DNA of 63,585 nt, counting the filler, from Collodictyon triciliatum (taxonomy: Eukaryota): assembly GCA_043381765.1 (NCBI GenBank). It is 6 parts of 6 records of this genome, joined end to end, with 100 filler letters (N's around TTAATTAATTAA, not from the genome) between each part and the next. Parts side by side here need not be neighbours in the genome. Positions count along the whole stretch, not along the records: positions 40,933 to 54,468 come from JBHJMP010001971.1; 5 more parts are not named here. One strand, written 5' to 3'. Positions within the stretch are counted from its first letter, which is position 1, and each line of letters opens with the position of its first letter. The position numbers and the translations under genes were made by a program. This document shows positions 41,443 through 48,888 of this stretch, in pieces. The notes under the pieces are model-generated. The model did not search any database. It was given only the letters and a program-made list of their open reading frames with translations, and was not told the origin of the DNA.

Positions 41443-44400
41443 GTGGGCCATTACCCACTTATGGACGAATCATCTGTCTTCAATCTCCGCAACGATGGGG
41501 TGTATGAGGTACGCCCGGCTTGCAGAGGTGGAGGAAATGCATCTTCAAGAATGGCCAGAGCTAATACGACCGCGGCGACGCGCTCACCAAACGCCCCAGT
41601 TGAGTCCACGGTTGATGTCCTTGAAATTTTATCTAAGCTTAACGAAGCGCATCAGTCTGCTGCATTGAACCCAACAGCAGGGCAAAATTTGCCTAACGTA
41701 TCCTTTCAACTGACTCAAATTCTGGCATCTCAACTATTGATGAGTCCCACCAAGGAAGAGGACATTAAACTTCTGGAGAGAGTCGTCGCACTTCATATCT
41801 CTGCAGTTGAGAAACAAGCAGCTGTTCAAAACCAGAGTCTGCGAGAACAAGCAGACATTGCTGAGAGGCATGCTAGCATCTCTGAGAAACAAAACGAATC
41901 TAAACAAAGGCTGATTCAAACACTCATGGACCAAGTGTCACGACTGCCAGCCTCCGAACAGAATTCCAGATCAATAGAATCTTTGGTTCAATGTATTTGT
42001 CCGCAAGGAATACAATCTCAAACAAGCATTCCCATCGCACAGATGCAAACAACTCCCGAGCCATTTGCGACTCATGTCCCATCCCCATATACACAAACTA
42101 GTGTCATTAATCAACCGAAAACTCCTAAGGGCTTTGAAACGTCTCAGGTTGCTGCTAATACAAATTTGCAGACACACAACCAGTCTGGGTTAAGTCGAGG
42201 CCTTCAATCAAATGATGCCCAACCCAGTGGAGGCGCAACCAGTACGACAAGCGCCGCGCTTAAAATTGAAGGACCGAGTAAATCTATCAAGTCCCCATCG
42301 ATTACTGGGTCTCATAACCCAACCAACATACAGCCGAGCTCAATACTGGCGAATACTCAAGGTGCTCCGGCCTTCAATGATTGGGAATGCGAACCGTCCG
42401 AGTTCATAGAGATACCTACTAATGCATCCGAGCTCGCCGAAACTATTATTGAACAAAGAGAACTACAATCAAGTGGAGGCATGGAAAAGAAAAGAGCTCT
42501 ACGTATCATCAAGCTGTTCATGAAGGAGCCGACCGCCGAGGATGAGAGTTTATATGAACTCACTGCACTTGCCCCATCAGGGGACAGACTGATTTCGGAA
42601 AAGCTGATAACCGCAGTTGGTGATAAGATGCAAAGTGGGATGGAAAAGTTGGACCGTTTGCTGAACGCTCTGAACATCACCTTGGCAAATACTCTCAAGG
42701 AAGATTTTGACCAAACCTTGTTGGCCAAAGTCCTTGATATTCTGATAGAACGTGTCGGAAGTCTCTTTGCGTCTGACGAGGCCTTATGTCAAAAACTACT
42801 GGATAGTTTGATTTCCATATTGAATTCGCTATATGTTTCTGGTGCATCAGGAATCCCTGAAGAAAAATACAAGGCATACAGGGAGACATTTGGTCAAAGC
42901 TGGATTGAAGCGAAAATCGAGACTCGTGGAGAAGAAATCGAAAGTAAAATGCAAATTCAATATGTTCAGGCCAAGAAATCCTTGTTTTGTGAGTTGCTGA
43001 AGCACATTGGAGATGGACAGAGCCCAGTCGTAAAAAATCTGAAAATTGCTGGCAAGGTAGGACTTGGTCTGTTCAACGCTGCTTCTGCTGCATTTTCTTT
43101 CGACGTCAGTAGCACTTTGGCTTCGCTGCAAGAAGTCGCCTCCGCTGTTGGAGAAATCGATATAAAGAAAAATTGGTTCAAGTTGTACCAGGATTTTCGA
43201 ATTTTTCTTTTTATCAACGTTGACGAAGCGAGGATTTTTTGGAACTCTCAGCTTTCTGGCAAGAAAGATAGAGTCGGAGAAACTCTGGCATTTCTAACCA
43301 TCGATACGATTTATGAACGCTTCTGTCATACAAACGTTGGTTCTGAACGACAAAAAGTCTATGACTTGATAAATTATGTCACACGGCATGAAAAATGGCT
43401 GAAAAGTGAGACTACCAACCGATTTGTGGAGTCAAGGAAAAAAGAGATGTTACAATACTATCCAAAAGTGCATAAGCTTCCAACCATTCTTTTTGAAAAA
43501 GCTGGGAAAGACGAGCGGACGATTCAAGACATCATCGAGAATATCAGGGAAGAGACTATTCGAAACGAAGAATTCAACAGTAGATTTAATACTTACATCT
43601 CTGGCCAAGCTGAAAGAATTGCCGAGAAAGGAAAGGTGTTTGATGCCCAAGAATACATTCTCAATTTCGTTACATCCTCAAAAGCAAAGGTGCTACTAAT
43701 ACTTGGTGACTCTGGTTCTGGGAAATCTCTACTTCAGCAACATATCGTGCGACTGCTGTGGGAGAAATTTATATTTGGAAAAACGTTTATTCCGTTGTAT
43801 GTTGCTCTTACCTCATTGGAAGAACCCAGAGAAAATGCCATCGAAGAGCTACTTCTTTCTGAAACCAAGAACAGTTTCTACATACCTGACTCTGACTTTC
43901 GACCAATGCAAATCAAAGAACTGAAAAAGAAACCATTCATTATATTCCTGGATGGTTATGACGAGATTGAAGATAATGGAGCTTCCTTTTACAATTCAAA
44001 CAAGCTAAATGAATGGCCAAACTGCAAGTTTGTGATTGGATGCCGAAGGCAGTTTTTAGAAAAGAAGTCCCATTATCAATCATTATTTGCACCAAAAATC
44101 AACCAAATCTATTCCCTTGATGAAATCTATTTGAGACCTTTCGAAAGCAAACAAAGACTTGAGTACTTCAACAAGTTTGCTGAGAAAAATCCCGTTGAAG
44201 GGTGGGAAAAAGGTGAAATCTACGAGACAGAGCTGAAGAAAATCAAGGAACTGGAAGAACTTGCTGTCACCCCATTTATGATTTTCATGGCAGCCACCAC
44301 ACTTCCGTTTTTACTGAAAGATAGGGCTGTTTCTAAGTCGAGGGAAAATTCCAGGATGATGAGAACGGACTTTCTAGACAAATTTTCAAGGAGTTGGTTT

Positions 44401-48888: not shown

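What the first reader, a model, noticed from the sequence alone, without database searches (positions are those of the whole stretch)
41443..48888. Giant single-exon NLR-like STAND gene with an unusual NACHT-pentapeptide-WD40-Sel1 architecture
Seen: a 7.4-kb ORF with no introns, while neighbouring genes are mostly split into exons of tens to a few hundred nt. Known: NACHT + pentapeptide + WD40 ending in a G.S..N..L..Q.GA tail resembles expanded NWD families in Mortierella fungi, ciliates and the endosymbiont Mycoavidus, which usually end at that tail. Inference: a second superhelical sensor (8 Sel1-like units) has been added after the normal C-terminus, giving a dual-sensor immune-like receptor. 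The lack of introns suggests recent horizontal acquisition or retroposition.
Basis: partly seen in the sequence, partly recalled or inferred. Interest (0 to 1): 0.72.

Follow-up and report, generated by a model that had tools for sequence, protein, structure and literature searches.

The report
Protist NLR-like gene with Sel1 tail
This is a real, uninterrupted 7.4-kb gene for a giant NLR-like switch protein whose usual WD40 sensor is followed by an extra Sel1 repeat arm, and a freshwater flagellate already in the databases has a relative with the same join, so it is a lineage-specific variant of a known family rather than a recent foreign import.

Summary
Window 41443-48888 (+) is one open frame of 2481 codons. 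The other five frames carry 84-196 stops each.

Its parts, in order:
- a low-complexity N-terminus
- an ARM-like helical domain
- NACHT with intact Walker A and B motifs
- pentapeptide repeats
- 13 WD40 blades
- the family's usual C-terminal cap motif
- eight Sel1-type units

The core belongs to the NACHT-pentapeptide-WD40 family described for Mortierellomycota and Mycoavidus (PMC11291939). In 65 of the 74 relatives that carry the cap, the protein ends within 100 residues of it. The Sel1 arm is therefore an add-on.

The add-on is not unique. A Diphylleia rotans transcript, P0131, has the same architecture and a conserved junction, and is the sister sequence in the tree. One metagenome protein gained a different Sel1 arm independently.

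Recent horizontal transfer or retroposition is not supported:
- The nearest relative is a eukaryote at 31-34% identity.
- Codon composition matches the neighbouring genes.
- One run shows a spliced 3'-UTR intron and a poly(A) end not encoded in the DNA.

I rate it a new variant of a known kind, of moderate interest.

The parts
41443..48888 (+). Whole open reading frame, 2481 codons plus the TAA stop (48886-48888). First codon is GTG; first ATG is codon 7 (41461).
   Evidence: the other five frames hold 84-196 stops
41443..42462 (+). N-terminal 340 aa, S/T/Q/N/P-rich with a probable coiled-coil stretch. No homologue found. Counted as coding only because the frame stays open.
   Evidence: sequence; 0 of 146 relatives matched by jackhmmer; only a weak ARM_5 Pfam hit further on
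42463..43542 (+). ARM-like all-helical domain (aa 341-700), homologous to the N-terminal domain (Pfam ARM_5, PF23948) of the Mortierellaceae and Mycoavidus relatives and of D. rotans P0131.
   Evidence: Pfam ARM_5 E 0.0011, below cut-off; phmmer to P0131 E 2e-21; jackhmmer reaches 106 of 146 relatives; AF2 model of aa 341-580 is all-helical, pLDDT 68; Foldseek finds only generic armadillo or designed helical repeats, 0 hits at E<=0.001
43690..44184 (+). NACHT NTPase domain (aa 750-914). Walker A GDSGSGKS is aa 755-762 (43705-43728). Walker B FIIFLDGYDE is aa 832-841 (43936-43965).
   Evidence: Pfam PF05729, 36.6 bits against cut-off 26.7; motifs read from the alignment
45079..45270 (+). Pentapeptide-repeat segment (aa 1213-1276).
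   Evidence: Pfam PF00805, PF13576, PF13599; aligned to the same segment in relatives
45286..47025 (+). 13 WD40 blades (aa 1282-1861), period 43-46 aa, each with a GPNGE-type insert. Mean pairwise identity is 38%.
47218..47262 (+). Cap motif G.S..N..L..Q.GA (aa 1926-1940), which marks the normal C-terminus of the family.
   Evidence: 21 of 118 relatives have the exact motif; 74 of 118 by HMM, 65 of these end within 100 aa of it
47305..48873 (+). Eight Sel1-type composite units (aa 1955-2477), 64-69 aa each as matched (repeat spacing 66-75 aa): one canonical Sel1 repeat plus a helical spacer. The last four are a recent tandem duplication.
   Evidence: Pfam Sel1 E 1.5e-45; unit HMM finds 8 domains; TRF 47928-48844, period 213 nt, 4.3 copies, 85% matches
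48891..48967 (+). 77-nt GT..AG intron in the 3' UTR, starting 3 nt after the stop codon.
   Evidence: one contig of run X1 joins 48889 to 48967, 85 letters on the shorter side; GT and AG read
49021..49051 (+). AATAAA (49021-49026) and the poly(A) addition site (49051).
   Evidence: X1 loose end of 21 A after 49051, not present in the DNA

Best explanation
This is an intact, transcribed nuclear gene of a free-living protist. Its closest known relatives are transcripts of the freshwater flagellate Diphylleia rotans.

It encodes a STAND (NLR-like) NTPase. The conserved core, ARM-like domain-NACHT-pentapeptide-WD40-cap, is the same as in the NACHT-PPR-WD40 proteins of Mortierellomycota and their Mycoavidus/Glomeribacter endosymbionts. 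In the diphylleid lineage a Sel1-type alpha-solenoid was fused once behind the cap. It has since grown by tandem duplication of 213-nt units.

Proposed working, inferred from the family and not shown here:
1. The C-terminal repeats (pentapeptide helix, about two WD40 propellers, Sel1 arm) hold the NACHT module off.
2. They bind a ligand or a guarded partner.
3. Binding allows nucleotide exchange and NACHT oligomerisation.
4. Oligomerisation clusters the N-terminal ARM-like and low-complexity region, which recruits downstream partners for a defence, cell-death or symbiont-control response.

The intron-free coding region is real. It goes with an old, resident gene family, not with a recent import.
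For: Anatomy:
- ORF and domains.
- Walker A and B are intact (alignment).

Family:
- 118 relatives at E<=1e-3, best 26-31% identity. Most are Mortierellaceae, plus Glomeribacter, Mycoavidus, Reticulomyxa and Paramecium.
- The ARM-like domain is shared with 91 of 94 Mortierellaceae, 2 of 3 Mycoavidus and D. rotans P0131.
- Print describes NACHT-PPR-WD40 in Mortierellomycota and Mycoavidus (PMC11291939, passages read).

Add-on:
- 65 of the 74 relatives with the cap end within 100 aa of it.
- 0 of 118 carry the Sel1 unit.

Single fusion in the lineage:
- P0131 (EukProt, D. rotans) is the only one of the best 150 tail hits with the full core.
- It aligns at 31% identity over 1259 aa.
- It shares the junction SFDK.F..YC....T.FQA..M.
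- It is sister to the window protein, SH-aLRT 99.

Resident gene:
- GC3 is 0.39 against 0.35 and 0.41 in neighbouring ORFs. RSCU correlation is r 0.59 and 0.52 against 0.71 between the gene's own halves.
- Spliced 3'-UTR intron and a poly(A) end not encoded in the DNA.
- Contigs of runs X1 and X2 with 2-3 differences bridge the WD40-Sel1 junction (records 5 and 10).
- Exact DNA pieces occur in two metagenome runs (records 17, 19, 22, 24, 25, 27, 30).
Against: - Function is inferred only. No ligand, partner, phenotype or induction data exist.
- The run type of X1 and X2 is a guess. The intron joint and the poly(A) end each rest on one contig of one run.
- The N-terminal 340 aa has no homologue, so the true start is open. 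P0131 has only about 50 aa before its ARM-like domain, and Met347 could be an alternative start.
- Only about 0.5 kb of sequence lies upstream before the assembly piece ends, so a 5' exon cannot be excluded.
- The tree is a quick LG+G4 search with long branches and an unresolved backbone. It says little about the deeper origin.
- The organism was not identified. A search with a neighbouring exon found nothing.
Confidence: 0.6

Rival explanations
1. One reading: the gene arrived recently by horizontal transfer from a bacterium or by retroposition of an mRNA, and that is why it has no introns.
For: - The 7.4-kb coding region has no intron, while the minus-strand neighbour on the same piece has no ORF above 183 aa and its domain pieces lie in separate short ORFs.
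- The family is shared with bacteria (Mycoavidus, Glomeribacter), and print proposes bacterium-to-fungus transfer for the Mortierellomycota members (PMC11291939).
- The best match to the tail is an alphaproteobacterial MAG protein built of about 35 similar units.
Against: - The closest relative is a eukaryotic transcript at 31-34% identity. No bacterial sequence is closer.
- GC3 and codon usage are like the neighbours.
- There is a GT..AG intron in the 3' UTR, and no A-tract in the DNA at the poly(A) site.
- Identity to the bacterial tail match is only 31%, and repeats inflate the score.
- From general knowledge, not tested here: NACHT modules of animal NLRs are also commonly encoded by one large exon.
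Confidence: 0.1
2. The protein is a STAND-type scaffold or regulator unrelated to defence, for example in cytoskeletal, trafficking or signalling assembly, and the Sel1 arm is simply an extra docking surface.
For: - ARM-like, WD40 and Sel1 modules are generic protein-docking folds.
- The N-terminal domain has no enzymatic or death-fold match. Foldseek gave 0 hits at E<=0.001, only helical repeats.
- The WD40 blades are only 38% alike on average. They lack the near-identical, fast-evolving repeats of the fungal NWD recognition genes (that property is recalled, not tested).
Against: - 53 of the 74 contigs of run X1 that were laid are 90-95% alike, suggesting recent paralogues.
- The last Sel1 units were recently duplicated in tandem.
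- The family has a patchy, expanded distribution.
- All three features are typical of conflict-related NLR families rather than housekeeping scaffolds. This is inference.
Confidence: 0.22
3. The Sel1 arm is an integrated decoy or adaptor, not a second ligand sensor. It would be a copy of a host Sel1 protein that pathogens or symbionts target, or a mimic of bacterial Sel1 effectors, fused to the receptor as bait.
For: - D. rotans has a further transcript made of the same composite unit, 48% identical (P0272, 342 aa).
- The same unit type builds an alphaproteobacterial MAG protein (P0120).
- Run contigs share the tail but diverge just upstream of it (loose ends at 47236-47314).
Against: - P0272 may be a fragment of a longer transcript, so stand-alone Sel1 proteins are not shown.
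- No interaction data exist.
- The junction is conserved at 31% overall identity, which fits a long-standing structural part as well as it fits a bait.
Confidence: 0.08

Closest known systems
NACHT-PPR-WD40 NOD-like receptors of Mortierellomycota and Mycoavidus/Glomeribacter endosymbionts (Ciach et al. 2024, PMC11291939; passages read)
   Same: - Same domain order: ARM-like N-domain, NACHT, pentapeptide, WD40 and the C-terminal cap motif.
- 26-31% identity over the NACHT-pentapeptide region.
   Different: - It lies outside the Mortierellaceae+Mycoavidus+Glomeribacter clade, which has SH-aLRT 100.
- It carries about 540 aa of Sel1-type units after the cap, absent from 118 of 118 relatives.
- It has an extra 340-aa low-complexity N-terminus.
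- Its WD40 blades have a GPNGE insert.
Diphylleia rotans transcript TRINITY_DN6671_c0_g2 (EukProt EP00002, P0131, 2169 aa)
   Same: - Same full architecture, including the Sel1 arm and the conserved cap-to-Sel1 junction.
- Sister in the NACHT tree.
   Different: - Only 31% identical.
- Shorter WD40 region (aa 966-1349) and a more degenerate Sel1 arm.
- Only about 50 aa ahead of the ARM-like domain.
- The cap motif is not detected by the HMM.
- Known only as a transcript, so its intron content is unknown.
Metagenome protein P0277 (JGI, 2078 aa): NACHT-pentapeptide-WD40-Sel1
   Same: NACHT, pentapeptide and WD40, then a cap-like stretch (read by eye; the cap HMM did not detect it), then Sel1-type repeats at aa 1231-1780.
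   Different: - No ARM-like domain.
- Its Sel1 repeats do not match the window's composite unit.
- Its NACHT groups with other metagenome proteins far from the window, SH-aLRT 100. I read this as an independent fusion.
NB-ARC proteins fused to Sel1-like repeats in the charophyte Klebsormidium (Andolfo et al. 2019, PMC7145615; passage read)
   Same: A STAND NTPase joined to Sel1-like repeats, interpreted as a gene fusion.
   Different: The NTPase is NB-ARC, not NACHT. The passage read does not mention pentapeptide or WD40 modules. No sequence comparison was made here.
Fungal NWD/HNWD NACHT-WD40 genes (HET-E/HET-D type) - recalled, not searched
   Same: NACHT followed by WD40 repeats, and membership of expanded families.
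   Different: - No HET or other known fungal N-terminal effector domain.
- Pentapeptide segment and cap are present.
- WD40 blades are only 38% alike, against the very similar repeats recalled for NWD genes.

Membership tests
NACHT STAND NTPases (Pfam PF05729) | Profile match above the curated cut-off | tested here: met
   36.6 bits against 26.7, aa 750-914, profile positions 2-165 of 167
NACHT STAND NTPases (Pfam PF05729) | Intact Walker A (GxxxxGKS/T) and Walker B (hhhhDGhDE) | tested here: met
   GDSGSGKS at aa 755-762 and FIIFLDGYDE at aa 832-841, read in the alignment
NACHT STAND NTPases (Pfam PF05729) | Nucleotide-dependent oligomerisation | not testable with these tools
   Needs biochemistry
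NACHT-PPR-WD40 family (Mortierellomycota/Mycoavidus type) | Domain order NACHT, pentapeptide, WD40 | tested here: met
   colinear with relatives
NACHT-PPR-WD40 family (Mortierellomycota/Mycoavidus type) | ARM_5-like N-terminal domain | tested here: met
   Pfam hit is below cut-off (18.3 against 27 bits), but jackhmmer links it to 106 of 146 relatives, among them 91 of 94 Mortierellaceae
NACHT-PPR-WD40 family (Mortierellomycota/Mycoavidus type) | Protein ends at the cap motif G.S..N..L..Q.GA | tested here: not met
   The motif is present at aa 1926-1940, but 541 aa follow it. 65 of the 74 relatives with the cap end within 100 aa of it.
NACHT-PPR-WD40 family (Mortierellomycota/Mycoavidus type) | Falls inside the Mortierellaceae+endosymbiont clade | tested here: not met
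   It lies outside the 40-row clade with SH-aLRT 100, and groups with D. rotans at SH-aLRT 99 (quick search, long branches)
Sel1-like repeat (SLR) proteins (Pfam PF08238) | Repeated profile matches above the cut-off | tested here: met
   152.4 bits against 30.7, 7 stretches; 8 composite units
Processed retrogene | No introns anywhere in the transcript | tested here: not met
   The coding region is intron-free, but one X1 contig splices out 48891-48967 in the 3' UTR
Processed retrogene | Genomic A-tract at the 3' end | tested here: not met
   No A-run at or after 49051 in the DNA
Processed retrogene | Intron-bearing parent copy elsewhere in the genome | not testable with these tools
   No genome is held, and there is no paralogue in the window
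Recent bacterial xenologue | Closest homologues are bacterial at high identity, and composition is foreign | tested here: not met
   The closest homologue is a D. rotans transcript at 31-34% identity. GC3 is 0.39 against 0.35-0.41 in neighbours.

The most novel reading that the evidence does not exclude
The full ARM-like-NACHT-pentapeptide-WD40 architecture is old in eukaryotes, or has moved between protists. The copies in Mycoavidus-type endosymbionts would then be captures from their hosts, the reverse of the direction proposed in print. In diphylleids the family has expanded and taken in a Sel1 module as bait for, or as a sensor of, the Sel1-rich proteins that intracellular bacteria deploy. 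That would be a protist counterpart of plant NLRs with integrated domains.
Probability: 0.12. Interest if true: 0.7.

Novelty: new variant of a known kind. Interest (0 to 1): 0.42.

Why it matters
- It extends the NACHT-PPR-WD40 receptor-like family, complete with its ARM-like N-domain and cap motif, to an orphan eukaryotic lineage (relatives of Diphylleia, CRuMs). The family has been discussed in print as a Mycoavidus-to-Mortierellomycota transfer, so this bears on where it arose and which way it moved.
- It shows that a second repeat module behind the normal C-terminus is recurrent. 6 of the 74 relatives with the cap run on for more than 300 aa, and Sel1 was added at least twice.
- It gives a concrete candidate for studying innate-immunity-like receptors in a bacterivorous protist.
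- It is not a one-off architecture and not evidence of a recent gene import.

Tried and rejected
- Whole-genome search: no genome is held for this window, so paralogue counts and genome-wide intron content could not be done.
- Earlier findings of this scan: none.
- Organism identification through a neighbouring exon (51188-51565, minus strand; 'longer' lengths): 220 candidates, none at E<=0.001. Its affinity to diphylleids rests only on P0131 and P0272.
- Sequencing runs: no RNA holder is listed. No contig of X1 or X2 was laid on 41443-45079, apart from one weak X2 bin. No conclusion is drawn from that gap.
- Joints inside the ORF (45530/45829, 46047/46103, 46132/46300, 47901/48348) lie within the WD40 or Sel1 repeats, lack GT..AG ends or carry other letters between the sides. 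I read them as paralogues or repeat collapse, not introns.
- ESM Atlas on aa 341-720: best scores 0.77 and 0.76 to viral clusters, below any useful level.
- Single-sequence AF2 of aa 341-720: pLDDT 38, unusable. An alignment with full-length relatives scattered the query's C-terminal third, so only aa 341-580 was modelled.
- Foldseek against the PDB: no hit at E<=0.001.
- Metagenome contig scan with the tail: 4 loci at only 26-29% identity, no close relative.
- tblastn of the protein's segments against the rest of the window: 0 HSPs outside the ORF.
- NCBIfam: only weak sub-threshold hits caused by the pentapeptide and P-loop segments.
- Rfam: only one tRNA, far away.
- Papers: 'Diphylleia'+'NLR' gave 4 unrelated papers. 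'Diphylleia rotans'+'genome'+'intron' listed only organellar-genome papers among the 12 shown of 29. 'NACHT'+'Sel1'+'NLR' gave 11 papers, none describing this architecture in the listing or the two sets of passages read.
- Assembly chimera between an NLR gene and a Sel1 gene: rejected. Independent run contigs bridge the junction (X1 record 5, X2 record 10), and P0131 has the same junction.
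Full report
**Observation**

Window 41443-48888 on the + strand is a single open frame of 2481 codons ending in TAA. The stop-to-stop frame opens at 41368. The first codon is GTG and the first ATG is codon 7. The other five frames of the same stretch carry 84-196 stops per about 2480 codons, so the frame is open by selection, not by chance.

No other ORF on the same assembly piece exceeds 183 aa.

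The N runs matter for reading the surroundings. They come as 44 N, 12 letters, 44 N. The one I read (40833-40932) holds an all-frame stop linker between long poly-T and poly-C piece ends. The window is therefore a chain of separate assembly pieces. The gene's piece is 40933-54468, with only about 0.5 kb upstream of the ORF.

**Anatomy**

Pfam results:
- NACHT at aa 750-914, 36.6 bits against a cut-off of 26.7.
- Pentapeptide repeats at aa 1213-1276.
- WD40, E 5e-59.
- Sel1, E 1.5e-45.

Further detail:
- Walker A (GDSGSGKS, aa 755-762) and Walker B (FIIFLDGYDE, aa 832-841) are intact (alignment).
- There are 13 clear WD40 blades, aa 1282-1861, period 43-46 aa. Each has a GPNGE-type insert, and they are 38% alike on average.
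- Then come eight composite units at aa 1955-2477, 64-69 aa each as matched (repeat spacing 66-75 aa). Each is one canonical Sel1 repeat plus a helical spacer.
- The last four units are a recent tandem duplication: period 213 nt, 4.3 copies, 85% matches.

Ahead of NACHT lies an all-helical domain at aa 341-700:
- Pfam ARM_5 matches it only weakly, E 0.0011, below the cut-off.
- phmmer ties it to the D. rotans protein P0131 at E 2e-21.
- jackhmmer reaches 106 of 146 relatives, among them 91 of 94 Mortierellaceae and 2 of 3 Mycoavidus proteins. It reaches none of the Reticulomyxa (0 of 3) or Paramecium (0 of 2) proteins.
- An AF2 model of aa 341-580 built on 24 relatives is all-helical, pLDDT 68 and pTM 0.61.
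- Foldseek finds only designed helical and armadillo repeats, none at E<=0.001.

The first 340 aa are low-complexity and have no homologue, 0 of 146.

**Relatives of the core**

A search with aa 650-1290 gave 118 proteins at E<=1e-3, the best at 26-31% identity. Most are Mortierellaceae. The rest are Glomeribacter, Mycoavidus, Reticulomyxa, Paramecium, Pseudocohnilembus and unnamed metagenome proteins.

Print describes this 'NACHT-PPR-WD40' architecture in Mortierellomycota as shared with, and probably acquired from, Mycoavidus (PMC11291939, passages read).

An HMM of the cap motif finds it in 74 of the 118 relatives:
- 65 of these end within 100 aa after it.
- 3 end 101-300 aa after it.
- 6 continue for more than 300 aa.

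None of the 118 carries the window's Sel1 unit. The claim that Sel1 is an addition behind the normal C-terminus is therefore supported.

**The addition is not unique**

A full HMMER scan of 1.84 billion representatives with the tail gave 5979 hits at E<=1e-3. Of the best 150, one also matches the ARM-like, NACHT, pentapeptide and WD40 segments: P0131, 2169 aa. One search names it as a Diphylleia rotans transcript in EukProt.

- P0131 aligns with the window protein at 31% identity over 1259 aa.
- It carries the same composite Sel1 unit.
- It shares the stretch that joins cap to tail, SFDK.F..YC....T.FQA..M.
- A second D. rotans transcript, P0272 (342 aa), is 48% identical to the tail and has the same unit.

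The tree covered 73 rows and 517 columns of the NACHT-pentapeptide region (IQ-TREE quick search, LG+G4, SH-aLRT only). I kept every fourth of 91 Mortierellaceae rows and all other rows whose region could be extracted.
- Window and P0131 are sisters, SH-aLRT 99.
- They sit in an unresolved set with Reticulomyxa, Paramecium and metagenome proteins.
- They lie outside a clade of Mortierellaceae plus Mycoavidus plus Glomeribacter, SH-aLRT 100.
- The tool warns of long branches and uneven composition, so deeper placement is unsafe.

A JGI metagenome protein, P0277, also has NACHT, pentapeptide and WD40 followed by Sel1-type repeats, with a cap-like stretch between them that I read by eye and the cap HMM did not detect. 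Its NACHT sits with other metagenome proteins far from the window (SH-aLRT 100), and its repeats do not match the window's unit. That looks like a separate fusion.

Fusions of NB-ARC with Sel1-like repeats are reported for Klebsormidium (PMC7145615, passage read).

**Is it a recent import?**

The contrast in gene structure is real. The minus-strand neighbour has a cNMP-binding match in the ORF 49825-50376 and a weak Ion_trans match in the ORF 51989-52186. Nothing between them or beyond is longer than 183 aa. By eye, the translations suggest about ten short exons. I did not map the exon borders.

The other evidence speaks against a recent arrival:
- The nearest relative is eukaryotic and only 31-34% identical.
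- GC3 is 0.39, against 0.35 in the neighbour's ORF pieces and 0.41 in a GAF-domain exon on another piece. RSCU correlates at r 0.59 and 0.52, against 0.71 between the gene's own halves.
- One contig of run X1 joins 48889 to 48967, removing a 77-nt GT..AG intron that starts 3 nt after the stop codon.
- Another X1 contig ends at 49051 in 21 A that the DNA lacks, 25 nt after an AATAAA.
- There is no genomic A-tract there, as a young processed copy would have.

The run type of X1 is only a guess by the tool. The splice and the poly(A) end are my reason to treat it as RNA, and each rests on one contig.

Contigs of X1 and X2 with 2-3 differences bridge the WD40-Sel1 junction (records 5 and 10). Exact short DNA contigs occur in one subsurface and one freshwater metagenome run (records 17, 19, 22, 24, 25, 27, 30). 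The gene is therefore not an assembly chimera.

Of the 74 X1 contigs laid, 53 are 90-95% alike, which suggests close paralogues. None lies elsewhere in the window.

**How it most likely works**

Shown:
- An intact STAND NTPase core with a helical N-domain.
- Three kinds of C-terminal repeat.

Inferred from what is established for STAND/NLR proteins:
1. The repeats keep NACHT closed and bind a ligand or a guarded partner.
2. Binding permits nucleotide exchange and oligomerisation.
3. The clustered N-terminal ARM-like and low-complexity region recruits downstream factors.

I put about 0.5 on a defence, cell-death or symbiont-control role. About 0.2 goes to a non-immune scaffold role. Whether the Sel1 arm is a second sensor, an autoinhibitory extension or an integrated bait cannot be told from sequence.

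**Verdict**

The gene is a new variant of a known kind: the NACHT-PPR-WD40 family extended by a Sel1 arm, shared with at least one D. rotans gene.

Its main value is comparative. The full architecture, ARM-like domain and cap included, exists in a eukaryote far from Mortierellomycota. That bears on the origin and the direction of the proposed fungus-endosymbiont transfer.

What stays open:
- the organism's name
- the 5' end of the gene
- paralogue number
- intron content across the family
- any function

Noticed in passing
window 13549-13648, 27192-27291, 40833-40932, 54469-54568, 61027-61126: N runs of 44 + 12 letters + 44. The one I read holds an all-frame stop linker flanked by long poly-T and poly-C piece ends. 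The window is a chain of separate assembly pieces, so adjacency across these points is not real.
   Followed up: partly
window 49743-52820 (-): Neighbouring gene on the same piece. It has a cNMP-binding domain and a weak Ion_trans match in many short ORFs, probably an HCN/CNG-like channel with about ten short exons. Exon borders were not mapped.
   Followed up: partly
window 39665-40660 (-): 331-aa ORF that is mostly poly-Q and ends in an AT-hook-like KKKRGRPRK. A 262-aa ORF overlaps it on the other strand. No Pfam family matched. It lies on a different assembly piece.
   Followed up: no
window 34587-35885 (+): 432-aa open stretch with a GAF domain (E 2.6e-10), probably one large exon of a cyclic-nucleotide signalling gene. 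It lies on a different assembly piece.
   Followed up: no
window 4980-5051 (+): One tRNA gene (Rfam, 62.9 bits).
   Followed up: no
protein P0120 (alphaproteobacterial MAG, 2584 aa): The best match to the tail is a bacterial protein built of about 35 units of 57-61 aa that match the same composite Sel1 unit (per-unit E 1e-8 to 1e-3). Whether this reflects shared descent or convergence of Sel1 repeats is open.
   Followed up: partly
relatives P0002, P0005, P0017, P0018, P0093, P0096: These are the 6 of the 74 cap-bearing relatives that continue for more than 300 aa after the cap. Extensions behind the normal C-terminus therefore recur in the family. What these extensions are was not examined, beyond the source names (TPR, ankyrin) for two of them.
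   Followed up: no
window 47236-47314 (loose ends in runs X1, X2, X4): Several run contigs match the start of the Sel1 arm but diverge just upstream. Some still encode a DFV.YC..G-like junction, which suggests paralogues with the same join, also in a freshwater metagenome run.
   Followed up: partly
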